This document shows, piece after piece, positions 1,532 to 61,169 of a DNA stretch of 64,000 bases (within the stretch, counting starts at the first letter, position 1; every line of letters begins with the position of its first letter). Location: the IMG/VR virus record IMGVR_UViG_2740892427_000001, one strand, 5' to 3'. This DNA comes from a virus (Duplodnaviria; Heunggongvirae; Uroviricota; Caudoviricetes). The notes beneath the pieces are model-generated. The model had not been told where the DNA came from. It was given only the letters and a program-made list of their open reading frames with translations, and ran no database searches. The translations under genes and the position numbers were made by a program.

Positions 1532-1921
1532 CTACATCACAGGACAATCATCAAACTCGCCACTTCTTGCGTCGTTGATAATGTGAGTGATCACACCAAA
1601 CACGGCATTGCTGCCCGTGCATCCATCATCATCCTTTGGCAATGCTTCCTTCTTACCAGTTCTTAAATCCTCCAGATGCTGACGTGGATACTTCCGGTAT
1701 CTTTTTACGCGATATTCCCCATCCAGAGCACATACAAGAAGAGATCCATCAACAGGAGTCAGTGAGGAATCGACCACCAGCAATGCACCCTGCAATATTC
1801 CCTCACGATGATGACTATCAGCCGCCCTCATGAAGTAGGTCGCTGAAGGATGTCTAATTATCTGCTGATCAAGAGAAATACGGCTCTCAGCATAATCCGC
1901 CGCAGGAGAAGGGAAGCCCAT
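1532..1921 (-). CDS. UmuD'/HumD-like SOS mutagenesis protein (S24 peptidase fold), naturally lacking the UmuD N-terminal arm
   Basis: MGFPSPAADY...SATYF..DS..VKR closely parallels UmuD/MucA from the RecA-mediated cleavage site onward; in-frame stop two codons upstream of the ATG, so no longer N-terminus is possible. Confidence 0.75.
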   Translation of the reverse strand: MGFPSPAADYAESRISLDQQIIRHPSATYFMRAADSHHREGILQGALLVVDSSLTPVDGSLLVCALDGEYRVKRYRKYPRQHLEDLRTGKKEALPKDDDGCTGSNAVFGVITHIINDARSGEFDDCPVM

Positions 1922-7006: not shown

Positions 7007-7067
7007 GTGTTTTTCTCTTATCGTTTAGTTATTACATTCTTACACAAATTAAGTAAGTATTTACCTA

Positions 7068-8753
7068 TCATTTAACGCGTTTGAAAACGTATACGCTGAC
7101 TGTGATCCCTGTGTCTTCAAACTCGTTGGTAAACGACTTCCCTCTGGCATAAACGTAATTATCCATCGTCATCCAGTCCAGTATTGGCGCAGTGCCCGGC
7201 AATACTGCTACAAGACGCCCGCCGACTTTCAGATGCCCCAGCGCAGCCAGCGTGTGCTCTCTATGACGACCAAGCGAGTACGGCGGGTTCATAACGATTT
7301 TGTCGAACTGATAACCTACGTTGTCCTCAGACCACTTTATGAAGTCGCAGCAAATCGTGTTCGTATACCCTTTTCCGCGCAGGATATCAGCGAAGAGAGG
7401 TGCGATTTCTATGCAGGTAACATCTTCCAGATCGGCGTTAATATAGGCCAGAAGATCCCCACGTCCGGCTTGAGGCTCCAACAACTTCTCACCAGGCTTC
7501 AATTCAGTGGCTCTGGCAACGTACTCAGCAATCAAGCGTGGGGTAGGGTAGAACTGGTGTGATTTTGTATCCGGTATTAAACCGGTAGCCACAATCGTAT
7601 TTAGCGTATGGCCGATCTCATACGGGAACTGCCAGTGCTTTTTCTCCTGCACGCCGCCAATGAAGCTCAGTGTGCGCTCAAGCTCTTCCACCTGCGACTT
7701 CTGGAGAGCTGAATCAGAGAAGTACCATACGCCTTTGTCTTTGCTAAATCGCCCGTCACGAAGCGCAGTGCGAACCGGCACGGAGATCGTCTTCTGGATT
7801 AACCCGAACTGCTTTGGTGCCCGTGTTTTTGGCGCAGTTCGGCATGGCGCGGGAATTGCAGCAGGCATACTGTAAGCCAGCACCTCATTCAACTTCCAGG
7901 CCACGTCAGGATGTATTTCAAAGTGAACGTTGCCGTTCTTGAACATCTTCACGCGCATCAGATTTCCATCGACGTTCATCCAGTCACCGGTCTGGCAGTC
8001 GTTTGCCCGATACGCAGCTGATAGCACCTCAGCAGTGCGGTTGATGGTAATAAATTCTTTGTGCGCGAAGAAATGAAGCAAGACACGCAGATCGTCGATA
8101 TAGTCCTCTTTGCGATAGTTCACACTAACGCTGTCCCGCCAGAAATCAGAAATGCAGTCAGCGATTATCAGACGTTCGCTGAAACCGTTTGTCTTATTTG
8201 TCTTGTGCGCAGGACTCAGCGCCTTAAACAAGCCATACACGCGCTCAGAGAGATATTTGTGCCTGTCATTCAGCAAATTAAGCATCGTGGGTATGACCGT
8301 TTCTGCTTTGAACTCCGGTACACCAACGAACTCTTTAACCTTCATCTGGTAGCCGGTTCTGTCAGTTTTGATGACTTCCTGTTTGCCCTCTATAAACTGC
8401 TCGCGCCACTCATCTCGACGGGAAGCTGGCATGATCAGCAAAACGTTAGTCATGTCCGTGACCTTCCTCCAGTACTCGGCCCAAATATTCTGTTTCACCC
8501 ATTCCAGATCGACTTTATCCAACCAACCTCGATTTAAACGCGAGCGATCTTCATCTGGTCGATGGTTTAGTCTCAGCAGGCGATTAATCATGTTGTGGCG
8601 TTCGTCGCCATAAACGAAGTCGTGTACCTGATACATGAAGGCGATCTCTTTCTCGCACTCGGCCACAATTTCGTGGATGACGTTCATTTCCTGCCGATAG
8701 TCGATAGCAGTGTTTGAGTTGGCATCGTCGATGATGGAAAGGGCTGTATTCAT
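7068..8753 (-). CDS. DNA N6-adenine methyltransferase fused to a large uncharacterized N-terminal domain
   Basis: C-terminal third carries FYPTP, EPQAGRGDL (AdoMet-binding) and NPPY motifs; N-terminal ~380 aa unassigned. Confidence 0.65.
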   Translation of the reverse strand: MNTALSIIDDANSNTAIDYRQEMNVIHEIVAECEKEIAFMYQVHDFVYGDERHNMINRLLRLNHRPDEDRSRLNRGWLDKVDLEWVKQNIWAEYWRKVTDMTNVLLIMPASRRDEWREQFIEGKQEVIKTDRTGYQMKVKEFVGVPEFKAETVIPTMLNLLNDRHKYLSERVYGLFKALSPAHKTNKTNGFSERLIIADCISDFWRDSVSVNYRKEDYIDDLRVLLHFFAHKEFITINRTAEVLSAAYRANDCQTGDWMNVDGNLMRVKMFKNGNVHFEIHPDVAWKLNEVLAYSMPAAIPAPCRTAPKTRAPKQFGLIQKTISVPVRTALRDGRFSKDKGVWYFSDSALQKSQVEELERTLSFIGGVQEKKHWQFPYEIGHTLNTIVATGLIPDTKSHQFYPTPRLIAEYVARATELKPGEKLLEPQAGRGDLLAYINADLEDVTCIEIAPLFADILRGKGYTNTICCDFIKWSEDNVGYQFDKIVMNPPYSLGRHREHTLAALGHLKVGGRLVAVLPGTAPILDWMTMDNYVYARGKSFTNEFEDTGITVSVYVFKRVK

Positions 8754-11888: not shown

Positions 11889-12033
11889 GTGGACTCCATC
11901 CAGTGTCAGAAAGAGTTGCGGCTGGCGATTGCCAGCCGCCTTTCTCGTTCCATCCTGGAACTGTGTCTTACCGACACATTGTCATCCTGACGCTGATAAG
12001 ATACATGATTTAAAATGATAGGTAAACACTTAC

Positions 12034-12678
12034 TTACTGCTTGTTATAAACAAAACCAATATCTTTCTTGTGAGGCATATCTGCTGCTGAAAAAGCTGCG
12101 ATCTTCGCGAGTCGATCACATATTTCATTTTCACGATGCCCGGCGTGACCTTTAACCCACTTCCAGCGAACATTATGTCGACTTGCGGCCTCATCCAGAC
12201 GTTTCCACAGATCAACATTCTTTACCGGTTTTTTATCAGAAGTCATCCATCCATTACGTTTCCACCATTTCATCCACTGTGTCATGCCGTTTTTCAGATA
12301 CTGGCTATCAGAGTACAAAATAACGTTGCATGGATATTTCAAACGCTCCAGCCCGATAAGTGCGCCCATCATCTCCATGCGGTTATTGGTGGTGCTATGA
12401 AAACCATCTGAGAACTCGCGTTCCTCACCACGATACTGGAGAACGATACCGTAACCGCCCGGGCCACCCGGATTTTTAAGGCAAGAGCCATCACTAAAGA
12501 TTTTCACGGTTTTGAGCTGGGGATTGAACTCTACGACAGGCGTTGTGGGATTGGTGCGGGGAGAATTTTTGTTTTTGGCTTTTTTGCGAGTTTTTGCTTG
12601 CGATCGGGCTGGTGTCTTCGTCGTCATATAAACTCCTGAATCAAGCGCCGCGCCGATTTTTTCCTCGCGCGTGCGCAC
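12034..12678 (-). CDS. rnhA: RNase H (RNase HI family); true start may be internal
   Basis: Core KIFSDGSC...NRMEMMG...[14 protein letters not shown] matches RNase HI; first ~20 codons overlap a GC palindrome and may be 5' UTR. Confidence 0.75.
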
Positions 12679-12699: not shown

Positions 12700-13200
12700 T
12701 TAAAATAAACAAATTACTTCCCAGAACAGGTTTTTATAAACCTGAACTGAACGAACGAAGTGAGTGAAGTTCACCTCGAACGAAGTGAGAGGTTGTCTTT
12801 TCAGGTAATACTCTCCCAGGGAGGTGAGTATAAAATTCCTCACCAACCTGGTCGTTTCATAACCTGAAAAGCTATGGTCTAAGTCTACTGCCAGCTTAGA
12901 CTTGGGAAGTTATGGATGACAGCACCCCAGAACCGAGATCTTCCCACACTTTATGAAGGGGAGTACTGGATTCAACCTCTCGAAACACCCCAGACTCGAC
13001 AATCATAAAGTGACCCTTGTCTCTGCTCACTTTGGTTCCCCCTTCCCCGACACCTATACGGCACCGGTTCTACGCTGGTAGTGAGCTTTTTTAAACCTGA
13101 CGCCAGTGACGCTTACCCCCACCCATCAGGTCGAGCCTCCAGTCTACGACTGGAAACTATCATATCTTAGCACTTACAATTCACTTTATGAATAGTTTGT
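12700..13200. other. ~500-bp ORF-free island with internal direct repeats and palindromes; candidate structured RNA or replication/packaging site
   Basis: No ORF of 60 aa or more in any frame; GAACGAAGTGAG x2 flanking palindrome GTGAAGTTCAC; several 5- to 7-bp stem pairs. Confidence 0.3.
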
Positions 13201-13209
13201 ACTTATCTA

Positions 13210-13464
13210 TCATTGTGATTGATTATTTTCTCGACCATGTAGTTGAACATTCAAGGCAAACACCTCATTGATCAACTCACCTAAAAGCTGTTCAACAAGT
13301 TCGCGATGCTCTCCAAGATGCAAGCACTTAATTGCCCACTCGTACAAGTTGAAAGCCTGCTCACGATCTTTCATCATTTCACGAGCCTGGGCCAGAAAAT
13401 CGCTCTCTACGAGCGCAACGACATTAGTCGGGTATGACATGTTGGTTTCCTTAAAGTGGTTCAT
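13210..13464 (-). CDS. hypothetical protein
   Basis: 84 aa ORF. Confidence 0.4.
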   Translation of the reverse strand: MNHFKETNMSYPTNVVALVESDFLAQAREMMKDREQAFNLYEWAIKCLHLGEHRELVEQLLGELINEVFALNVQLHGRENNQSQ

Positions 13465-13545: not shown

Positions 13546-13604
13546 AGCCTGCTTCCGTATATTAATAATTAATATGTAGTTATTTATATATACAGAAGCA
13601 GGCT
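13546..13604. terminator. long hairpin AGCCTGCTTCCGTATAT / ATATACAGAAGCAGGCT with AT-rich loop; one of two copies of this element
   Basis: 17-bp stems with one mismatch; second copy at 61112..61169. Confidence 0.5.
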
Positions 13605-14219: not shown

Positions 14220-14402
14220 CTTCTTTCTCGATAGGTAAGTGATTACCTATTTTTGCATTTGATTTTATGTCTGGCAATCAAATAAAACGCGCCAGAAATG
14301 CAAACGAGAAGCTCTCTGGCGCGTTTTTGTGGTGCTGGGTATGTGATTGGCTTACCCAGCACTATAAAGCTCTCTATGGGCTTTATTTTCAGTAGGGGAA
14401 CG

Positions 14403-19051: not shown

Positions 19052-19221
19052 AAAAACCTCACAAAGATAAGTAATTACTTATTCATCGTGTGAGTTTACA
19101 TTCATTGAGAGAACAAGACCAGACAGATAAAAAAATGGTGGCCATAGGCCACCAAAACGAATAGTCATTCCAGAGTTTTATTACGCATGTTAAATATACA
19201 CAGATAGATAACTACCTACAA

Positions 19222-23733: not shown

Positions 23734-23806
23734 GTATCACCAAATAAAGAGGGCCACTATATTTAGTGGCCCATGTTAATAGATAAGCACTTACCTATCA
23801 ATGAAA

Positions 23807-24385: not shown

Positions 24386-25128
24386 TTACCATGTTCCCCA
24401 TAGAGGGTTTTCCAATAATCTCGCCTCCAACGAATTGGTTACTATTGCCGTTTGCAACGTTGGTTGGGGATAGTTTGCAAAGTCTGAATACTCATTTTCC
24501 TGCGTGACACGTTTATCTACGGCATGTTTAACGCCACTTGCTATGAAATGACGCATGATACCCAACAGCCTCCGACTGTCTGCACTATCGTTTGCTAAAA
24601 CATGAGGGAGCTGAAGTTCGATTTCTACCATTTCTCCATACTTACCAACAAACTGTAGTTTGTCCGCACTGTACTTTTTATCCCTCCTTTGGATAAGGAA
24701 ACCAGTAAAAGCATCACCTGGCGATGCCAAACTATCCACCCGCTTATTGGCAAGTCGAATAAGGTTCGTGAAAGCCATACAGTGATGCGCATCCATTGCC
24801 CCAAAGAACCCTTCGCTATCAATGTTAAGATCTTCAGTTTCATGGGTTGCGATAAACCCAGGCCCGACGTTGGGGAGATATCCCCCTCAACAAAAGGATT
24901 AATCAGGATCGGCGCAATACATCCAGGTGGTAGTGATTTCAAACTTTGCATCAATGGTGTCTCGGATATTAGACCAAGCAACGAGGCGAATTGTACTCCG
25001 TCAATATTGTTGCTGCCCCACAGAATACGTGGAGCCGAACCATTGGAAGTATGCCCATTGATCAGTTTTATCGACTGCATCACTGCAAATACCTGCAAAA
25101 ACTGCGAGCGGCTTAATTTAAACGACAT
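24386..25128 (-). pseudogene. gene interrupted by a frameshift at a G5 tract (two overlapping ORFs in different frames)
   Basis: Upstream frame is protein-like to ~24890, then the other frame is protein-like to the stop at 24386; switch point is the ccccc run at 24882..24886 inside palindrome GGGGAGATATCCCCC. Confidence 0.5.
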
Positions 25129-28349: not shown

Positions 28350-28575
28350 GTGTTTTTCCTTTGTGGTTATTTTGATACAGATATTAAGTGTGTTTGAGAG
28401 GCGAACAATCCAGATAACACGGCCATTAAGAATGTTCACAGACACATGATTATGGCAAATTCATAGGTAAGTGAATACCTATTTTTATGGACAGCAAAGA
28501 CTTCTAGATGTTACAAGCCACTCTATAATCGCAGTCACTTAATGATGACAACCAAACGAAAAAGGAGAACTGACG

Positions 28576-29115: not shown

Positions 29116-29551
29116 TTGGGTCGCGAAACAGCATGTCGGCCATTTGCGAGGATTTGACGTAGCACTTTGCCATCATCGGCTGACTAGGGTTTGATGCGAT
29201 CATGTCGGACACCAGCATTGACCCATAGCCTTTTCCGCGAAGCTCTTTGACAATACTGACGGCACGGAGTTCAAGTCAAGGTGCGCCAGTCGGATCGAGT
29301 GCGGCACAGAACCAGATTAGTCCTACTTTTTGTCATCAGAACGATGCAGCAGGATGTAGATAAAATGCCCGGAGTATTGGCCCCGCTCGTTCGTCTTGAT
29401 TGCCAGTCTGGTCTGCTGCTCAAAGGTTTTACCCCCCCTTTGATGTGAGGATCTCTTCGTAGAAGTGACCTTTGCGTGCGCCGTCCTCGAACTCAGCCAT
29501 GATAAAAGGCATGTCTGTCACAGTTGCTGCCCTTGAATAAAATTCACTCAT
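29111..29551 (-). pseudogene. decayed GNAT acetyltransferase-like gene (frameshift at C7/G7 tract plus further disruptions)
   Basis: Minus-strand reading MSEFYSRAATVTDMPFIMAEFEDGARKGHFYEEILTSKGG stops at the G7 run (29432..29438); C-terminal fragment in another frame has LRGKGYGSML (GNAT motif A-like). Confidence 0.45.
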
Positions 29552-29626
29552 GTATTAATCCTAAAAGCCCTCAGTGTCTTTCTAATGCACCATATTTTAT
29601 GCCTCGGTTAAACCCTGAGATTACGT

Positions 29627-30271
29627 TTAAAACGTCTCAGTGGGCTTTTTACGCGCTGCGTTTATGCTTATGACGCCAGCTTTTGGACGTGGGTCAACAA
29701 GGTTAAGCTCTTCTTCACTGTGGTATTCGAGGTCGAACTCACGTTTTACATGTCTGATGTAGATTGCGGTGAGCAGGCTATCTTTGGTCAGGAAGTGTCC
29801 GTAGGATTTGCGGATCACTTCTTCTACCTTCTCGATTTTCTCACCACCCATACAGAGATGATTAAACCGGCTGTGTTTCCGCAACATTTCGTCTACTGGG
29901 CCTGAGTAAACCTTGTCTACTTTCCCAAAACGGATGATTTTCCCTGTGTCTGCGGATACAAGGCAAATCAGCTTGTCTGGTGATAAACGATCTTGCCACG
30001 TCACACCTGAACGGAGTGTGTTGAAGTAGGGTGCATCCAATCCGATGATCGGTTTACGAAATGCGAGCAATGGAACGTACCTGATGCAACTGTTTAAATG
30101 AAAATTCACACCAGCCTTATCAAGTTTAATTCTGGTTTCGTAGATCGGGCACTTCGCCGCTATACCGCAGATGTCACAAAGCAACTTCTGCTTATTCAGG
30201 TTGGAATTTGATTCGATAGTGTAGGAGCCGTCCTCAAGACGACGAACCCAGCGCGTGCGTTTTAGATCCAT
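29627..30271 (-). CDS. hypothetical protein adjacent to replication origin
   Basis: 214 aa ORF. Confidence 0.5.
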   Translation of the reverse strand: MDLKRTRWVRRLEDGSYTIESNSNLNKQKLLCDICGIAAKCPIYETRIKLDKAGVNFHLNSCIRYVPLLAFRKPIIGLDAPYFNTLRSGVTWQDRLSPDKLICLVSADTGKIIRFGKVDKVYSGPVDEMLRKHSRFNHLCMGGEKIEKVEEVIRKSYGHFLTKDSLLTAIYIRHVKREFDLEYHSEEELNLVDPRPKAGVISINAARKKPTETF

Positions 30272-30358: not shown

Positions 30359-30806
30359 TTATCCACTGGATAGATCCAAATAAGAGATCCCAAGTAAGAT
30401 CAAATAGAAGATCCAAAGAGATCCCCGATCGCCTCTAGCCGTTGCGGTTACTGGTCTGAAAGGGTGTTGCCATCCACTATGGAGAGCAAAGAAACCTCTG
30501 TAGAGAGCTGAATAACCGCTATGAAGAGTAAAACAACCACTCTGGAGAGCTGTATATATCCACTGTAGAGAGTAGAGCACATTGTCTTTTATGGATAACT
30601 TAATGACTTAATTCTTCATTAACATACTGATATACATAGATATATTTTAAACTCTACTCTTAGTCATGATTCTTATGTCCTTAAATATCCACAGAAGAGT
30701 AGAGTTACCTGTTCTTGAAATCCTCTGATTTTATCCACAGGCCCGATCCAGTAATTCAGATCACAAAGAGAACCAAAGAGACCCATAAAGACCCAATAAG
30801 ATCCCC
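30359..30806. promoter_or_regulatory. origin-type region: DnaA boxes and two GATC-rich clusters
   Basis: DnaA box-like sites at 30359..30367, 30685..30693 and perfect TTATCCACA at 30731..30739; GATC clusters at ~30373..30430 and ~30752..30806. Confidence 0.5.
30472..30573 (+). repeat. iteron array A (5 copies, 21-bp period, consensus AWCCRCTNTRGAGAGY)
   Basis: Copies at 30472, 30493, 30514, 30535, 30558. Confidence 0.75.
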
Positions 30807-30851
30807 GCCCACCTCAAACCGTTGCGCCATCTGCCTTCAGACATGATCGAT

Positions 30852-30973
30852 ATCCACTATAGAGAGCGAATAATCCACTATAGGGAGCAAAGCAACCACT
30901 ATAGAGAGGAGAAAAACCACTATAGACGGTAGGATAACCGCTGTGATGAGTGCTACTATCCACTGTAATCAGC
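30852..30973 (+). repeat. iteron array B (6 copies, 21-bp period) immediately upstream of repA
   Basis: Copies at 30852, 30873, 30894, 30915, 30936, 30958. Confidence 0.8.
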
Positions 30974-32071: not shown

Positions 32072-32555
32072 CAACCACTGTAGTTAGTAGTAAGGCTCAC
32101 TATCCACTGTAGTGAGCCTTACTTATATCTGTAATTCGCTATCCACTATAGTGAGTATCGTTATCTGTTGATAACCACTGTAGGCAGTAGAATGCAAATA
32201 CTGAATTAAATGTTAGTGATCACTAACACTGATGAAACAAGGGCTGCGAGGTTAGTGGTCACTGGGTATCTTGGAAAATTTACTGTCTATAGTGGTTGTT
32301 GTCGCCCTCATCTTTGAGCGTATCCACTGTGGCGAGTGGATATCCACTGAAAACAGCAAAGGCTTACTCACCATAGTGGATACCCGCTGGACATCTCACT
32401 CCAATACTCACCATAGTGGTTGTTTGATGCGAATGAAAGGCTGTCTACTCGCTACAGTGGTTAGCAGATATGTAGGAAGAGAGGACTGCAGACCACAGTG
32501 GATAATGAGCTGATACGAATGCGGTGAGCTGGCTACTCACCGCAGTGGTTGGTGC
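32072..32555. repeat. iteron array C downstream of repA (~11 copies, both orientations; incA-like)
   Basis: Repeated CCACTGTAG/CACTATAGTG-type units; also palindrome GTTAGTGATCACTAAC at ~32212..32227. Confidence 0.7.
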
Positions 32556-33281: not shown

Positions 33282-33320
33282 GATAGGTAGATACTAACTT
33301 ATATAAATTTTACTGTAAAC

Positions 33321-35203: not shown

Positions 35204-35295
35204 GTGTTTTCCTATGTGGTTGTTATGCGAAAATAATAAGTAAGTACTTATATATTTTCAAGAGATAAAAAAGGCGTCCTGTGGACGCCTTGTGT

Positions 35296-37910: not shown

Positions 37911-38899
37911 TACCTTTCGAATGGAAGAACAAACACTTCAAGGTCTTCAAGGAACGAACGGAAATTCAGCTCGTAGCACAGTTGCTCGAATGCTTTCACG
38001 TCACGATTGCCTTTGATTGTTTCGATTTCGGTAGGCGGAAACTTCGTCTCAATCAGGTTCATTAGCGTGATGTTTCTCTTGAACGCTTCGAGCATTCGAC
38101 AGCCTGTTTTCTCGTTGAAGGCATTCTTCGCTAGTTTGTTGAAGGCGGTCTTATGGCGTCCTTTGTCAACCACGATTGAGCCGTCGTTGATGCCGCGTAC
38201 CATCGTTGCGACACTTCCCCATTCATGCAGCAGCTCTTTCGCACCGCCAGCACCAATGCCACCAACACCGCTAATGTTGTCCGATTTATCGCCTTGTAAT
38301 GCTTTTGCTTCCAAAAATGCGCGAGGCGTGGCGAATCCTGTCAGCTCCGCAAATTGCTCAAAATTAACCTGCTTGTTTTTGGCGTCTTCACGCAGGCTTA
38401 CCCAGCTTACGTTTTCACGAACTAACTGAAGCCAGTCGCTATCGCCTGTTAACAGATAGATGTGTTCAACGGTTGGCTGCGGTGCCATGCGGGATACCAG
38501 CAGCCCGGCCAGATCATCCGCTTCTGCATCTTTTGCAATGAGTTGGGTAACTCCAAGCGCGGTCATCATTTTGAGGATGTATGGCTTCTGGATAGCAAAG
38601 CCTTCCTTCATCTTTTTCATATCAGGATCGTCGTCGCGATTTGCTTTGTAGTCCGGGTAAAAGTCGCGACGCTTGTCACTAAATCCATCCCAAAGAATCA
38701 TAGGTCGGGCATGGAGGATGGAGGCATAACGACGGACGTTCTTAACAAAGCCGAAAGCAGCCTGTACTTCCATTTCGCCGTTGTGCAATTTGTCAGATTG
38801 TTGGTGGTAATAACCCAGGCTATTGCCATCTACGAAGAGATAATTCACCGGTACATTCCTTCCAAAAAGTAAGGCGTCCGTAGAGGCCTTACTGGTCAC
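37904..38899 (-). CDS. 5'-3' exonuclease / flap endonuclease
   Basis: FVDGNSLGY N-terminal block and H3TH-like GDKSDNISGVGGIG. Confidence 0.7.
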   Translation of the reverse strand: MTSKASTDALLFGRNVPVNYLFVDGNSLGYYHQQSDKLHNGEMEVQAAFGFVKNVRRYASILHARPMILWDGFSDKRRDFYPDYKANRDDDPDMKKMKEGFAIQKPYILKMMTALGVTQLIAKDAEADDLAGLLVSRMAPQPTVEHIYLLTGDSDWLQLVRENVSWVSLREDAKNKQVNFEQFAELTGFATPRAFLEAKALQGDKSDNISGVGGIGAGGAKELLHEWGSVATMVRGINDGSIVVDKGRHKTAFNKLAKNAFNEKTGCRMLEAFKRNITLMNLIETKFPPTEIETIKGNRDVKAFEQLCYELNFRSFLEDLEVFVLPFERYC

Positions 38900-39937: not shown

Positions 39938-40054
39938 GTGTTTCTCCTTGTTGTGATTTGGCCGATGGCGCTATGCGCGTTGGGCTTTCGTTCATTCGTG
40001 GCTCTTTCGAGCTGTTAAATGATAGATCAGTACTTACTTATTATCTATCAAAAA

Positions 40055-47360: not shown

Positions 47361-47455
47361 GCGTTTTTCCTTTGTTTTCTAATGAGCGTTCAACTTCTTA
47401 TATAAATATATCATTATCTATCGTAAGTGGTTACTTATCGTTAAGGCTGTTTTGT

Positions 47456-49662: not shown

Positions 49663-49875
49663 TTAACAGATTCTGACGGCTAAAGACCCGGAGCCGGTAT
49701 TGAGAAGCGTGAAGCGTTTGTTGTTAAGTTCGAATATAAATCCAGTTGTGTCATTCACACCAACCTGAATCTGCTCATTCGGTAGATCGGTGAGGATGTC
49801 AGCTACACACTCATCAACTAATTTCTGTACGTGTCCGATCTCAAGAGCGATTAGGCTGGAAATAGTGGTGTTCAT
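49663..49875 (-). CDS. small hypothetical protein
   Basis: 70 aa ORF. Confidence 0.4.
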   Translation of the reverse strand: MNTTISSLIALEIGHVQKLVDECVADILTDLPNEQIQVGVNDTTGFIFELNNKRFTLLNTGSGSLAVRIC

Positions 49876-50053
49876 TCAATCAGTCCATTCTAACTTATAC
49901 TATGGTAAGGAATACTACTAAAATTTGTATCAATACTGAATACATTCATATCATATGCAAGTTGATTTTCTTACCTATTTTTGGCTAATTTTTCTCCGTG
50001 CAATGGCCTTTAACCGGTCTTTTAAGTGCCTATCGAAAAAAATGATAATAGCT

Positions 50054-50097
50054 TTACAACCCTAACCTTTGATGTAATATCGGTAAGCACTTACCAG
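50054..50097 (+). promoter_or_regulatory. promoter TTTACA-16-TAATAT with palindromic operator GGTAAGcaCTTACC just downstream of the -10
   Basis: Located 30-70 bp upstream of the HTH regulator ATG; the palindrome belongs to the dispersed motif family. Confidence 0.5.
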
Positions 50098-50126
50098 AGA
50101 GAATTGAACGCGCAAAGGTTGTAACC

Positions 50127-50513
50127 ATGTCTGATAACAAGATTGAATTTATAGAAAGTCGCTACGCTGCTTTTATCGCAGGGTTGATTGAATCCTCACC
50201 TATGAGCCAGGCCCAGATAGCCAAAACAATTGGGTATAAAAACGCCAACAACCTTTCTTTAATTAAAAGCGGCAAAATTCCTTTGCCTATCGATAAGGTT
50301 CGTCCGCTGGCGCTGGCACTGGGTATTGAGCCAAGTCGTCTTATGATGATGGTGCTGGAAGAACGCCAACCCGAACTCGCAGCATTTTTATACAAAGAAG
50401 GCACTGCTCCTCTTAACGAGGACGAAAAACAGGTTCTTGCTGCATATAACGAGCGATTCGGTAAAGAGAAAGGCGCATCACAAAAGGTTGTTGAGGCCAT
50501 AAAGTCTCTATGA
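50127..50513 (+). CDS. HTH (XRE/Cro-C1 type) transcriptional regulator
   Basis: 128 aa; HTH-like MSQAQIAKTIGYKNANNLSLIKSGK. Confidence 0.6.
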   Translation: MSDNKIEFIESRYAAFIAGLIESSPMSQAQIAKTIGYKNANNLSLIKSGKIPLPIDKVRPLALALGIEPSRLMMMVLEERQPELAAFLYKEGTAPLNEDEKQVLAAYNERFGKEKGASQKVVEAIKSL

Positions 50514-51742: not shown

Positions 51743-51798
51743 TTGACGTTGTTTTTTGAATTTTAAGGGAAACGGGAGTGAGTTTGGTGGGAATAAAA

Positions 51799-51816
51799 AC
51801 GGCTCCTGTGAGCCGT
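51799..51816 (-). terminator. intrinsic terminator after glutaredoxin gene
   Basis: acggctcctgtgagccgt stem followed on minus strand by TTTTTA. Confidence 0.5.
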
Positions 51817-51821
51817 TAAAA

Positions 51822-52067
51822 TCAGAGGGTGCTGACGTATGCAGCCAGTTCTGTGTATCCGCCAATCGGTTGGCCATCGATCAGCACTTGGGGGATAGTC
51901 TCTACCGGTTTACCAACAATTTCACTTAGTTTTTCCTTGTCGATACCGGCAGTGGTGATGTCGATGTACTCATAATCACCGTAGCCATGTCCCTTTAGTT
52001 GCTTCGCCAGCTCGACCGCACGTTTGCAGTATGAGCAGTTATCTCGTCCGTAGATAGTGATCGTCAT
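51822..52067 (-). CDS. glutaredoxin-like protein (RNR reductant)
   Basis: 81 aa; CSYC active site near N-terminus. Confidence 0.7.
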   Translation of the reverse strand: MTITIYGRDNCSYCKRAVELAKQLKGHGYGDYEYIDITTAGIDKEKLSEIVGKPVETIPQVLIDGQPIGGYTELAAYVSTL

Positions 52068-52635: not shown

Positions 52636-52722
52636 TGGCGGAGAGTAATGGAATCGAACCATCATCGCTTGCGCAATGGGACGGTTTTCAAGACCGCTTG
52701 AGCACCATGCTCCCTACTCTCC
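52636..52722 (-). tRNA. tRNA-Ser (anticodon TGA), long variable arm
   Basis: Cloverleaf folded by hand: acceptor GGAGAGT/ACTCTCC, anticodon loop CTTGAAA, T-loop GGTTCGATTCC, 87 nt. Confidence 0.7.
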
Positions 52723-52822
52723 AGCTATTGTGATGGTCGGTGCTGAACTCCGACACAGGGTTGTAGCAAGCCCCGCAAAGCGCGCACTACTGTAGTTGCG
52801 GCACATCAGCCTGTGCATTCAT

Positions 52823-52901
52823 CACAACGGTAAGATCACTACCTTTCGACCAGTCATTGTGCACATGAACGACGATTAACCGTAATGATCTTATCGTTGT
52901 G
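52823..52901 (-). repeat. hairpin-bounded module H2 (terminal inverted repeat CACAACGGTAAGATCA)
   Basis: 79 nt, 16-bp stems with one G-U position. Confidence 0.4.
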
Positions 52902-52952
52902 TTGTGAAGCCAGATGCTTATCTTCTGGTTGCTTCAAAGAGCTGCACTTCCT

Positions 52953-53041
52953 CACAACGGTAAGAGCACTGGTCTGACTCTATCGATTTACGGGCTTGTG
53001 GGTCAGTATCGCCGATTCGCCCAATGCTCTTACCTGTTGTG
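52953..53041 (-). repeat. hairpin-bounded module H3 (terminal inverted repeat CACAACGGTAAGAGCA), abuts tRNA-Thr
   Basis: 89 nt, 16-bp stems with one bulge. Confidence 0.4.
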
Positions 53042-53042
53042 T

Positions 53043-53118
53043 TGGTGCCGGTTAACGGGATCGAACCGCTGACATCCTGCTTACAAGGCAGACGCTCTAC
53101 CAACTGAGCTAAACCGGC
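53043..53118 (-). tRNA. tRNA-Thr (anticodon TGT)
   Basis: Acceptor GCCGGTT/AACCGGC, anticodon loop CTTGTAA, T-loop GGTTCGATCC, 76 nt. Confidence 0.8.
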
Positions 53119-53122
53119 AATT

Positions 53123-53209
53123 TGGTGGGGAGTGATGGAGTCGAACCACCCGAGTCGCAATGACAGTAGATTTACAGTCTACCCCGCTGCCCCTACGGAC
53201 TAACTCCCC
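53123..53209 (-). tRNA. tRNA-Tyr (anticodon GTA), long variable arm
   Basis: Acceptor GGGGAGT/ACTCCCC, anticodon loop CTGTAAA, T-loop GGTTCGACTCC, 87 nt. Confidence 0.75.
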
Positions 53210-53214
53210 TAAAT

Positions 53215-53289
53215 TGGCGATGGTGGGTGGATTCGAACCACCGACCAGTTGGTTAACAGCCAACTGCTCTACCGCTGAGCTACACCATC
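53215..53289 (-). tRNA. tRNA-Asn (anticodon GTT)
   Basis: Acceptor GATGGTG/CACCATC, anticodon loop CTGTTAA, T-loop GGTTCGAATCC, 75 nt. Confidence 0.8.
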
Positions 53290-53677: not shown

Positions 53678-54081
53678 TGCTGGCTAACCATACCAGCCGG
53701 GCTACGTCGCCGCTTTTTAACCCAGTATAAACGACATAATTGAACAAAATGACGTAACAGGATGGGCGGTCAGTGGCTAAGAATCCGGGAGTCATATGGA
53801 GTTGAAAATATACCAACCGCCCATTCTGTTACTTCATCGGATAGGGCATAGTGGTTTGGCTGTCTATGCCCTATCCTGCGTTCTGCAATCACACTCGCTC
53901 AGTGTGTCCCATTTCGGTAACGAGGCTGGAAACTGACCTCGCTGGTGTTTGGCTTATTAGGCTACTGCCAGATAGACTTCTTCGTTTGCACTTGTATTTA
54001 AGTTCAAACAGTCGCGTCTCAACGAAAACAAAGTCATCTTATACATAAAAGATAAGTAAGTAAATACTTATCATGATGTTT

Positions 54082-56694: not shown

Positions 56695-56749
56695 AAATAA
56701 TCTTGTACTTACCTATCATTCTTTGCGTAAAAAACGACACACTGAGAGA

Positions 56750-57532: not shown

Positions 57533-57607
57533 ACAAACTCCTAGCTAACAGATGAAAGTATTCTTACAGAAAGATAAGTAATCATCTACTTATTTTATCG
57601 GCACTTG

Positions 57608-61004: not shown

Positions 61005-61111
61005 CTGGTAGGTAGTTACTTACTTATCACAATGAGCGGATGATAGCGACTGGTGGCAGTTTTTGGAAGTGGAAACGGAAGGGAATGTATCTGGGAAGTC
61101 AGCAGAGAAAA

Positions 61112-61169
61112 GACCTGCTTCCGTATAAATAATAATAAGTAACTTAGTATTTATATACAGAAGCAGGTC
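61112..61169. terminator. second copy of the long conserved hairpin GACCTGCTTCCGTATA / TATACAGAAGCAGGTC
   Basis: 16-bp stems with AT-rich loop; paralog of hairpin at 13546..13604. Confidence 0.5.

What the first reader, a model, noticed from the sequence alone, without database searches (positions are those of the whole stretch)
50054..50097. Dispersed palindromic operator-like motif at many promoters, including the promoter of the only HTH regulator
Inverted repeats with arms ATAGGTAA/TTACCTAT or ATAAGTAA/TTACTTAT (core GGTAAG...CTTACC, spacer 0-6 bp) sit 10-120 bp upstream of start codons at many operon starts. Instances include ~7050, 12017, 14231, 19066, 23781, 28464, 35235, 40021, 47415, 54051, 57574 and 61008. 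The same palindrome lies immediately after the -10 of the promoter for the HTH regulator at 50127..50513. This looks like a single regulon with scattered operators, reminiscent of how the P1 C1 repressor is distributed, with the HTH protein as an autoregulated candidate.
Basis: partly seen in the sequence, partly recalled or inferred. Interest (0 to 1): 0.6.

Follow-up and report, generated by a model that had tools for sequence, protein, structure and literature searches.

The report
Genome-wide palindromic operators, SSU5-like phage-plasmid
A 20-26 bp palindrome sits in front of most silent phage operons of this E. coli SSU5-like phage-plasmid and of its relatives (pHCM2, pMT1, Klebsiella and Acinetobacter plasmids); it is most likely the operator set of the element's lysogeny repressor, a control network I found described nowhere in the literature I could search.

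Summary
The window is about 98-99% identical to the E. coli phage-plasmid Cyrano, an SSU5-like element.

- **Motif:** a 20-bp palindrome, ATARGTAAGT|ACTTACYTAT, extending symmetrically to 26 bp.
- **Enrichment:** 12 matches with 3 or fewer mismatches against 0 expected. All strong sites are intergenic. 18 of 49 intergenic gaps carry one.
- **Spread within a genome:** Cyrano, SSU5 and Klebsiella pJN2-26 each hold 21-22 sites, including sites between late structural genes.
- **Lineage variants:** two Acinetobacter lineages carry ATTAGTAAGCGCTTACTAAT and ATCAGTCAGTACTGACTGAT.
- **Nature of the site:** the two half-sites vary independently, so this is a double-stranded DNA site for a symmetric protein, not a hairpin.
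- **Position:** it varies relative to promoter elements, which fits repression rather than activation.

The 128-aa HTH protein is the best candidate binder but is unproven:
- It is core to plasmid-state relatives (995 records against 931 for the primase).
- It is absent from SSU5, the phage-cocktail isolate.
- It is expressed about 10x over background in the lysogen, while the other conserved DNA-binding candidates are silent.
- Its own TTTACA-16-TAATAT promoter carries a conserved core site over the -10 and predicted start.

The resemblance to P1 C1 is functional only; there is no homology. Verdict: a new member of a known kind, apparently undescribed. Confidence in the HTH-repressor model is about 0.55.

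The parts
50127..50513 (+). HTH45: a 128-aa XRE-type HTH protein, identical to CYRAN_45 'putative repressor'. Candidate binder and lysogeny repressor.
   Evidence: Structural model and fold matches to C-proteins, HigA, lambda/434 repressors and SinR. Lysogen expression 96 against a background of 9.8.
50053..50080 (+). Promoter-like element of the HTH gene: TTTACA, 16 nt, TAATAT.
   Evidence: Conserved in pHCM2, pMT1 and pJN2-26.
50079..50098 (.). Weak 'core-only' palindrome ATCGGTAAGCACTTACCAGA, overlapping the -10 and the predicted start of the HTH promoter.
49663..49875 (-). hyp46: a conserved 70-aa gene divergent from HTH45 and first gene of the CobT-CobS-PolIII array. A possible Cro- or Coi-like partner (inference only).
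7049..7068 (.). Palindrome upstream of Ead91. A conserved TGTAAGAAT lies 5 nt downstream on the minus strand.
12018..12037 (.). Palindrome after RNaseH82 and upstream of hyp83.
13191..13210 (.). Weaker palindrome (5 mismatches) downstream of hyp80.
14231..14250 (.). Palindrome 11 nt upstream of the Dam start codon, abutting the ribosome-binding site. A -10-like TAAAAT lies upstream of it.
19067..19082 (.). 16-bp register variant ATAAGTAATTACTTAT, 15 nt upstream of the ThyX GTG start (19051) counted from this 16-bp element.
   Evidence: One search reports d=13 for a 20-bp frame starting at 19065.
23779..23798 (.). Palindrome upstream of nrdA, followed by the hairpin at 23750-23771.
28463..28482 (.). 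Palindrome in the divergent SbcD/orf28576 region. A conserved CATAAT (TG-extended in SSU5 and pJN2-26) lies 8 nt downstream toward SbcD.
33283..33302 (.). Palindrome between hyp59 and hyp60.
35236..35255 (.). Palindrome upstream of memb56. It fills the spacer of TTGAAA-17-TATTAT on the minus strand.
40022..40041 (.). Palindrome upstream of the gp32-like SSB gene.
47419..47438 (.). Weak site (one good half plus the core) upstream of CobS.
54052..54071 (.). Palindrome with a conserved TATAAGAT downstream. It heads the region containing four tRNA genes (52636-53289, minus strand).
56697..56716 (.). Palindrome (4 mismatches) at the hyp34/hyp35 junction.
57574..57593 (.). Palindrome upstream of hyp34, with a conserved extended -10 (TGTAAGAAT) 5 nt downstream.
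61008..61027 (.). Palindrome 12 nt upstream of hyp31, at the boundary between the expressed ParA-hyp30 operon and the silent replication genes.

Best explanation
The palindromes are double-stranded DNA operators for a symmetric dimer of the element's lysogeny repressor, most probably the 128-aa XRE-type HTH protein at 50127-50513. In the plasmid (lysogenic) state the repressor would occupy about 20-30 operators spread over the whole 108-kb genome. These lie over the -35 region of extended -10 promoters, inside promoter spacers, or just downstream of start sites next to ribosome-binding sites. Occupancy would keep the replication, recombination, nucleotide-metabolism, tRNA, structural and lysis operons silent. 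Plasmid-maintenance genes carry no operator and stay on. A weaker core-only operator over the repressor's own -10 and start would give negative autoregulation. The protein has no S24 cleavage domain, so SOS induction would have to go through another factor.

Shown: the motif, its enrichment, placement, conservation and lineage variants, and the independence of its half-sites. Also shown are the gene's distribution and its published expression.

Inferred: that the protein binds, that binding represses, and the induction route.
For: **The motif is real, intergenic and genome-wide.**
- Enrichment and intergenic bias.
- 18 of 49 intergenic gaps carry a site. None lies at the promoters of RepA, HicAB, ParA, the antitoxin or MinD.
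- In Cyrano, SSU5 and pJN2-26 it also lies between late genes.

**It is a protein site on double-stranded DNA.**
- Paired positions 4/17 give G-C 16, A-T 15, G-T 12 and A-C 16, which is independent variation.
- The flanks are symmetric.

**Its position suits a repressor**.
- A conserved -10 element (TGTAAGAAT, or CATAAT TG-extended in SSU5 and pJN2-26) lies 5-8 nt downstream at the hyp34, Ead91 and SbcD sites, with a related TATAAGAT (hexamer about 10 nt downstream) at the tRNA site.
- TTGAAA-17-TATTAT embraces the memb56 site.
- At Dam and ThyX the palindrome abuts the ribosome-binding site.
- At the HTH gene's own promoter it covers the -10 and predicted start, and this is conserved in four lineages.

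**The HTH gene fits the role.**
- Homologues occur in 995 PLSDB plasmids against 931 for the primase, with the same breakdown by genus.
- It is absent from SSU5, the isolate proposed for phage cocktails (PMC7969092).
- Of the Cyrano DNA-binding candidates, only HTH45, two ParB-like proteins, CYRAN_123 and TerS have homologues in Acinetobacter pABTJ2.
- In the LF82 lysogen, CYRAN_45 reads 96 against a background of 9.8. ParB-like reads 5.0 and 9.5, and CYRAN_123 reads 7.8. Genes preceded by the palindrome sit at background (PMC9928086 S1 table).
- The fold matches XRE dimers that bind palindromes.

**Specificity tracks the HTH gene.**
- Three operator types go with three recognition-helix types.
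- HTH45 is only 30% identical between the two Acinetobacter lineages, where the median shared protein is 59% and the adjacent integrase is 98.5%.
- Four operators cluster within 850 bp around the HTH gene's control region in NZ_CP131951.1.
Against: - There are no binding data.
- The site at the HTH promoter is the weakest by position weight matrix (7.8).
- Most sites lack a recognisable -35, so many may be weak promoters or not promoters at all.
- SSU5 keeps all its sites without the protein. That fits recent loss of a repressor but fits equally well a binder that SSU5 still encodes.
- The ParB-like proteins and CYRAN_123 co-occur with the motif just as well, including in pMT1, and a palindrome also precedes the parB-like operon.
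- Covariation across only about 5 lineages cannot be separated from general divergence.
- The Pfam HTH hit of the window protein is below the gathering score (19.7 against 30.2).
Confidence: 0.55

Rival explanations
1. Activator-dependent phage promoter element, analogous to P1 late promoters. A phage protein still encoded by SSU5 would bind the palindrome and recruit host RNA polymerase to promoters lacking a -35. The copy at the HTH promoter would shut off the repressor during lytic growth.
For: - Most sites lack a -35.
- The sites persist in SSU5, which has no HTH45.
- The genes downstream are silent in the lysogen, when such an activator would be off.
- The centre AAGTACTT resembles the P1 -22 box AAGT(G/T)ACTT.
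- The downstream arm drifts toward TATAAT or TATACT in the Acinetobacter lineages.
Against: - The position relative to the -10, the ribosome-binding site and the start varies from about -40 to about +25, which activators do not tolerate.
- The extended -10 elements conserved at several sites need no activator.
- The site covers the -10 and start of a near-consensus promoter.
- There is no Lpa homologue and no hidden HTH or sigma protein among 20 unknowns.
- One element serves both early and late genes.
Confidence: 0.15
2. Sites for a ParB/KorB-like global regulator (CYRAN_119/120), or for the small CYRAN_123 protein. This would work like KorB on RK2, or serve partition, condensation or DNA modification.
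For: - These proteins are conserved in every lineage that has the motif, including SSU5, pMT1 and Acinetobacter.
- A palindrome lies 17-40 bp upstream of the parB-like operon in Cyrano, pABTJ2 and NZ_CP131951.1.
Against: - They are not expressed in the plasmid state (5.0, 9.5 and 7.8 against a background of 9.8), so they cannot be what silences the genome there.
- The sites are strictly intergenic and placed at gene fronts, with no clustering near the par genes.
- ParB-like proteins are 80-90% conserved where HTH45 is 56-66%, and they diverge only averagely between lineages with different motifs.
Confidence: 0.12
3. An RNA-level element. The transcribed palindrome would form a hairpin that serves as a processing, stability or translation-control signal next to ribosome-binding sites.
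For: Several sites lie 1-15 nt from start codons inside co-directional gene arrays.
Against: - There is no compensatory variation. A-C mismatches (16) are as common as G-C (16) or A-T (15) at the variable pair.
- What is conserved is the sequence, not the pairing.
- The flanks are symmetric.
- The stems would be weak and AU-rich.
- The distance to start codons varies from 1 to 160 nt.
Confidence: 0.04

Closest known systems
Phage-plasmid P1: C1 repressor with dispersed operators
   Same: A plasmid prophage of about 100 kb is kept silent by one repressor. Its many operators are scattered over the genome at sigma-70 promoters, in variable positions (spacer, over the -10, after the -10), including at the repressor's own gene (P1 record annotation; PMC8198154).
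   Different: - There is no C1, Coi or Lpa homologue.
- C1 operators are 17-bp asymmetric sites, ATTGCTCTAATAAATTT. Here the site is a 20-26 bp palindrome.
- In P1 the late operons use Lpa-dependent promoters. Here the same site also precedes late genes.
- The candidate protein is a 128-aa XRE-type HTH, not a 283-aa C1.
Mycobacteriophage L5 gp71 'stoperators' (from my own knowledge: Brown et al. 1997)
   Same: About 20-30 repressor sites lie in short intergenic gaps of both early and late operons, many of them not at obvious promoters.
   Different: Stoperators are 13-bp asymmetric sites that act in one orientation. Here the sites are symmetric. Roadblock activity was not tested.
Cro/CI-XRE family dimers on dyad operators (434 and lambda repressors, C.AhdI/C.Esp1396I, HigA, SinR)
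   Same: The predicted fold matches. The operator is a dyad with half-site centres about 10 bp apart. An operator lies over the protein's own promoter.
   Different: - The operator is much longer (20-26 bp).
- There are tens of sites rather than 2-6.
- There is no S24 domain.
- The extra C-terminal helices (residues 82-127) have no assigned role.
RK2/IncP KorA-KorB global regulons (from my own knowledge)
   Same: Palindromic operators recur at many promoters of a large plasmid.
   Different: There is no sequence relation, and the ParB-like genes here are silent in the plasmid state.
P1 late promoters (9-bp -22 box, 4 nt, then the -10 hexamer)
   Same: The box AAGT(G/T)ACTT resembles the palindrome centre AAGTACTT.
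   Different: There is no fixed spacing to a -10, no Lpa homologue, and the element here is 20 bp and fully dyadic.

Membership tests
P1 C1 repressor/operator system | C1-family repressor protein (283 aa) | tested here: not met
   phmmer of P1 C1 against all ORFs of five SSU5-like genomes gave no hit at E<=10.
P1 C1 repressor/operator system | 17-bp asymmetric operator ATTGCTCTAATAAATTT | tested here: not met
   The P1 operators were extracted. The motif here is a 20-bp palindrome of unrelated sequence.
P1 C1 repressor/operator system | Many operators dispersed over a phage-plasmid genome, variably placed at promoters, with the repressor gene itself controlled | tested here: met
   This concerns layout only; binding was not tested.
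XRE / Cro-CI type HTH repressors | HTH_3/HTH_19-type five-helix DNA-binding domain | tested here: met
   - Window protein: HTH_19 at 19.7 bits, below the 30.2 cut-off.
- pABTJ2 orthologue: HTH_3 at 36 bits, above the 23 cut-off.
- PHROG 8, transcriptional regulator, E=1e-11.
- AlphaFold2 model with Foldseek matches to C.BclI, C.AhdI, HigA, lambda and 434 repressors, target-normalised TM-score 0.6-0.78.
XRE / Cro-CI type HTH repressors | Dyad-symmetric operator made of two independent half-sites | tested here: met
XRE / Cro-CI type HTH repressors | The protein binds these operators and represses | not testable with these tools
   Needs EMSA, ChIP or genetics.
LexA/CI-type self-cleaving repressors | C-terminal S24 peptidase domain | tested here: not met
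   HTH45 has no S24 hit. The separate 129-aa S24-only protein at 1532-1921 is UmuD-like.
L5-type stoperators | Many repressor sites in short intergenic gaps of early and late operons | tested here: met
L5-type stoperators | Asymmetric site acting in one orientation relative to transcription | tested here: not met
   The site and its flanks are symmetric.
P1 Lpa-dependent late promoters | Lpa homologue, plus a box at fixed spacing (4 nt) from the -10 | tested here: not met
   There is no Lpa homologue, and the spacing to -10-like elements varies.
ParB/KorB global regulators | The regulator is present in the plasmid state to act on its sites | tested here: not met
   CYRAN_119 reads 5.0 and CYRAN_120 reads 9.5 against a background of 9.8 in the LF82 lysogen.
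Structured RNA / hairpin element | Base pairing maintained by compensatory changes | tested here: not met
   Pair 4/17 gives G-C 16, A-T 15, G-T 12, A-C 16.

The most novel reading that the evidence does not exclude
The SSU5 supergroup and the Acinetobacter AB group (about 1000 sequenced plasmids, including S. Typhi pHCM2 and Y. pestis pMT1) share one silencing architecture. A small XRE repressor would sit on about 20-35 copies of a 20-26 bp palindrome built from 4-bp units: AAGT-AAGT|ACTT-ACTT in the enteric lineages, CAGT-CAGT|ACTG-ACTG in one Acinetobacter lineage, and TAGT-AAGC|GCTT-ACTA in the other. It would cover early, late and tRNA operons alike. Repressor and operator set would co-evolve as lineage-specific 'immunity codes' that decide which of these plasmids can coexist or superinfect. 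Loss of the repressor-integrase module would then be what turned SSU5 into an effectively lytic phage.
Probability: 0.4. Interest if true: 0.7.

Novelty: new member of a known kind. Interest (0 to 1): 0.55.

Why it matters
SSU5-like phage-plasmids are widespread in clinical Enterobacteriaceae and Acinetobacter, carry resistance genes, and include pHCM2 and pMT1. Reviews nonetheless list no mechanism for how they stay lysogenic (PMC11652158).

A defined operator consensus and a candidate repressor make this directly testable:
- Induction control and hetero-immunity or incompatibility between lineages can be examined.
- It can be asked whether SSU5, proposed for phage cocktails, behaves lytically because it lacks this module.
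- Plasmid curing by derepression becomes a concrete experiment.
- The operator also gives a simple sequence signature for annotating promoters and operons in about 1000 plasmids.

Tried and rejected
- **De novo motif search.** A palindromic EM run on intergenic DNA drifted to a generic AT-rich motif. I replaced it with k-mer enrichment and consensus or weight-matrix scans.
- **Sigma-70 scoring around the sites.** It gave ambiguous -10 calls at both ends, because the AT-rich flanks are themselves symmetric. A fixed-offset downstream -10 is not enriched overall (15 against 19 in the mirror orientation). Only orthologue footprinting was informative.
- **Wider search for relatives.** The word-indexed protein search returned only SSU5-like contexts, so I could not test HTH homologues outside this family.
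- **Co-occurrence.** ParB-like proteins and CYRAN_123 are also present in pMT1, so co-occurrence did not separate the candidates.
- **A possible SSU5 homologue.** The weak profile hit to SSU5_031 (E=0.0012) was rejected. BLASTP gives E=0.62 and there is no Pfam HTH.
- **Hidden regulators.** Pfam scans of 20 proteins of unknown function found no sigma or HTH domain.
- **Literature.** Searches for the motif strings and for SSU5/pHCM2 regulation found no description. The Lobocka 2004 P1 genome paper and the SSU5 genome announcement are not held.

Full report
**What the window is.** The window matches Escherichia phage Cyrano (OV696614) along its whole length, at 98-99% nucleotide identity over most blocks. 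Cyrano is the SSU5-like phage-plasmid of E. coli LF82. The window corresponds to Cyrano 28.4-91.2 kb in reverse orientation. It holds the replication, recombination and nucleotide-metabolism genes, mostly on the minus strand. It also holds plasmid functions: RepA with iterons, ParA, HicAB and KacT. The HTH gene at 50127-50513 is identical to CYRAN_45, annotated 'putative repressor'.

**Checking the observation.**
- The consensus is a fixed-register 20-bp palindrome, ATARGTAAGT|ACTTACYTAT.
- It has 12 matches with 3 or fewer mismatches, against 0.00 in 100 dinucleotide shuffles.
- It has 20 matches with 5 or fewer mismatches, against 0.53 expected, and all of them are intergenic.
Against a 2nd-order Markov model trained on the intergenic DNA itself, I find 10 against 0.0 (3 or fewer mismatches) and 17 against 0.18 (5 or fewer).
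- Without any prior, ATAAGTA is the most intergenic-enriched 7-mer: 19 intergenic against 3 coding occurrences, with intergenic DNA at 17% of the window.
- A symmetrised position weight matrix finds 17 sites scoring 10 or more, against about 0 expected.
- 18 of 49 intergenic gaps carry a site.

- The spacer is not variable. The one exception is 19067-19082, which lacks the central 4 bp.
- The anchor site at 50079-50098 is a 'core-only' copy. GGTAAGCACTTACC is perfect but the outer ATA/TAT positions are lost. It is the weakest of the list, scoring 7.8 against 22-30 for the good sites.
- Sites at 33283, 56697 and 13191 were missed.

**Anatomy.**
- A logo from 65 sites in three enteric genomes shows the symmetry extending to 26 bp (AWR-20 bp-YWT). 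The immediate flanks show no gene-direction asymmetry.
- The only strongly variable paired position (4/17) gives G-C 16, A-T 15, G-T 12 and A-C 16. That is independent variation of the two halves, with no selection for pairing.
- This excludes a hairpin under structural selection. It is what a symmetric protein dimer reading two half-sites on double-stranded DNA would produce.
- Each half-site is built from two 4-bp units (AAGT-AAGT).

**Placement.** The distance to the next start codon ranges from 1 to 160 nt. Comparing orthologous sites across E. coli, SSU5, Klebsiella pJN2-26, Klebsiella strain 148 and Moellerella shows several architectures:
- A conserved -10 element (TGTAAGAAT, TGTAATAAT, or CATAAT that is TG-extended in SSU5 and pJN2-26) lies 5-8 nt downstream of the palindrome at the hyp34, Ead91 and SbcD sites. 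The tRNA-leader site carries a related TATAAGAT with its hexamer about 10 nt downstream. This puts the palindrome at about -40 to -21.
- At memb56, TTGAAA-17-TATTAT embraces the palindrome.
- At Dam, ThyX and hyp31 the palindrome abuts the ribosome-binding site. For Dam and ThyX this holds in every lineage compared, and -10-like hexamers lie upstream, so the site would sit at about +1 to +25.
- At the HTH gene's own promoter it covers the -10 and the predicted start.
- No single offset is enriched overall.

A span from about -40 to about +25 is normal for repressor operators. In P1, C1 operators occupy equally varied positions. Such variation is not tolerated by activators. Extended -10 promoters also need no -35 element and no activator.

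**Beyond the window.**
- Whole-genome scans find 21 sites (4 or fewer mismatches, overlaps removed) in Cyrano, 22 in SSU5 and 22 in pJN2-26 (raw hits).
- These include the short gaps between terminase and portal, after the capsid gene, before the tail genes and before the holin. The regulon is therefore not limited to early genes.
- In Acinetobacter pABTJ2, whose primase is only 40% identical, the top over-represented 8-mer is TAAGCGCT (39 against 3.0 expected). It belongs to the palindrome ATTAGTAAGCGCTTACTAAT, with 32 sites.
- A second Acinetobacter lineage, NZ_CP131951.1, uses ATCAGTCAGTACTGACTGAT, with 31 sites. GTCAGTACTG occurs 20 times against 0.2 expected.
- Klebsiella strain 148 and Moellerella carry enteric-type variants. 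Aeromonas has an ATCAGTAAA…TTTACTGAT-like form.
- The architecture is therefore ancient, and its base specificity is lineage-specific.

**Who binds?** Of Cyrano's candidate DNA-binding proteins, only five have homologues in pABTJ2: HTH45, two ParB-like proteins (CYRAN_119/120), CYRAN_123 and TerS. CYRAN_37, the Cra-like protein, the FljA-like CYRAN_114 and the S24-only protein do not. Pfam scans of 20 unknowns revealed no hidden HTH or sigma domain.

Evidence pointing to HTH45:
- **Distribution.** Homologues occur in 995 PLSDB plasmids, against 931 with the primase. The breakdown by genus is near-identical: Klebsiella 348/345, Escherichia 230/222, Acinetobacter 154/154, Enterobacter 92/91, Salmonella 49/49. 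The synteny CobT-hyp46 / HTH / integrase is conserved. A profile search also finds a homologue in Aeromonas.
- **The exception.** SSU5 lacks the hyp46-HTH-integrase block. SSU5 is the phage proposed for biocontrol cocktails (PMC7969092).
- **Expression.** In the LF82 lysogen, CYRAN_45 reads 96 normalised reads against a prophage background of 9.8. CYRAN_119, 120, 123 and 37 read 5.0, 9.5, 7.8 and 6.4. The genes behind the palindromes sit at background (PMC9928086 S1 table; main-text table).
- **Its own promoter.** TTTACA-16-TAATAT carries the core site from inside the -10 onward. That core is preserved in pHCM2, pMT1 and pJN2-26 while the leader sequence diverges.
- **Operator clusters.** In the Acinetobacter lineages the HTH/hyp46 control region holds the densest operator cluster: four sites within 850 bp in NZ_CP131951.1 and two in pABTJ2.
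- **Recognition helix.** NANNLSLIKSGK is identical in E. coli, Salmonella and Yersinia, which share one operator type. It differs in the two Acinetobacter lineages, which have different operators.
- **Divergence rate.** Between those two Acinetobacter lineages HTH45 is 30% identical. The median shared protein is 59% and the adjacent integrase is 98.5%. That pattern is typical of immunity determinants.
- **Fold.** The AlphaFold2 model (mean pLDDT 75.6) is an XRE five-helix domain followed by three further helices. Its nearest solved folds are dimeric binders of palindromes: C.BclI, C.AhdI, C.Esp1396I, HigA, lambda and 434 repressors, SinR and Stl. A sequence search of the PDB found nothing.

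**What remains open.**
- None of this shows binding.
- SSU5's retention of the sites without HTH45 fits two readings: recent loss of a repressor, or a binder that SSU5 still encodes.
- The ParB-like proteins and CYRAN_123 co-occur with the motif everywhere, including in pMT1. A palindrome also precedes the parB-like operon.
- Most sites have no recognisable -35. Many may be weak promoters, or plain roadblocks like the stoperators of phage L5.
- In one lineage both 4-bp units of a half-site changed in the same way (AAGT-AAGT to CAGT-CAGT). I cannot explain this with a simple helix-in-groove picture.

**Comparison with what is known.** The closest functional analogue is P1: a plasmid prophage silenced by one repressor with many scattered operators (PMC8198154). 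It is not a member of that system.
- There is no C1, Coi or Lpa homologue in five SSU5-like genomes.
- C1 operators are 17-bp asymmetric sites.
- P1 late promoters are a 9-bp -22 box followed by 4 nt and the -10 hexamer. That box, AAGT(G/T)ACTT, resembles the palindrome centre AAGTACTT. The fixed spacing and Lpa are both missing here.
- L5 gp71 stoperators share the spread across early and late intergenic gaps, but they are asymmetric.
- At the protein level this is an ordinary XRE-family HTH without an S24 domain. The ciprofloxacin induction of Cyrano (PMC9928086) must therefore use another route, which is unknown.

**Novelty.** I found no description of this motif or of SSU5-group lysogeny control in the searchable literature. 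A 2024 review of phage-plasmid regulation gives mechanisms for P1-unrelated systems but none for SSU5. I rate it a new member of a known kind: a master repressor with dispersed operators in a phage-plasmid. It is well supported as a motif and regulon, moderately supported as to the binder, and of practical interest because the family is large and clinically relevant.

Noticed in passing
window 30360-30957 and 32101-32497 (plus 42186): Eleven copies of TATCCACTRTAG (AGTGGATA, the second most intergenic-enriched motif) flank repA on both sides. They are probably RepA iterons and incompatibility repeats.
   Followed up: partly
window 23750-23771: A perfect 22-bp hairpin, GGGCCACTATATTTAGTGGCCC, with a T-run on the minus strand. 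It lies between the 23779 palindrome and the nrdA start and is conserved in SSU5, pJN2-26 and Klebsiella strain 148. It could be a terminator or attenuator, or an NrdR-box-like site.
   Followed up: partly
window 13549-13601 and 61115-61166: Two copies of a large hairpin, CTGCTTCCGTATA…TATACAGAAGCAG. Their AT-rich loops produce the weak palindrome matches at 13568 and 61135. They may be terminators at operon boundaries. In Cyrano, expression falls from 55 to 6 between hyp30 and hyp31 across the region that corresponds to the 61115 copy.
   Followed up: partly
window 24386-25128: The CYRAN_67 homologue is split into two overlapping ORFs here (a frameshift relative to Cyrano).
   Followed up: no
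window about 51760-51850: The window lacks about 0.9 kb that is present in Cyrano. That stretch holds CYRAN_43, by far the most highly expressed Cyrano gene in the LF82 lysogen (7084 against a background of 9.8).
   Followed up: no
window 52636-53289: Four tRNA genes on the minus strand (Ser-TGA, Thr-TGT, Tyr-GTA, Asn-GTT). They lie downstream of the strong 54052 palindrome and its conserved -10-like TATAAGAT, so the tRNAs appear to be under the same control.
   Followed up: partly
L025 (P1) late promoters, e.g. 38318-38336: The P1 Lpa-dependent -22 box AAGT(G/T)ACTT resembles the centre AAGTACTT of the SSU5-type palindrome. This could be coincidence or a shared constraint.
   Followed up: partly
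L010:18154-18819 (pABTJ2) and L020 about 29382-30080: Both Acinetobacter lineages encode a sigma-70-like protein (Sigma70_r2, weak hit) between the MoxR/CobS-like gene and dnaE. The enteric members have none there. The two copies are only 28% identical to each other.
   Followed up: no
L010:12618-13238 against L020:35246-35869: The integrase next to the HTH gene is 98.5% identical between two Acinetobacter lineages whose HTH proteins are 30% identical. A recent exchange seems to have stopped exactly at the repressor gene.
   Followed up: no
window, e.g. 35204-35216 and 7007-7020; L022: A translation-initiation region, GGAAAACACATG or GAGAAAAACACATG, recurs in front of many genes. GAAAACACAT occurs 9 times and AAAACACATG 10 times in 50 kb of Klebsiella strain 148.
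   Followed up: no
window 1532-1921: A 129-aa protein with only an S24 peptidase domain (UmuD-like, no DNA-binding domain). It may link to the SOS induction reported for Cyrano.
   Followed up: no
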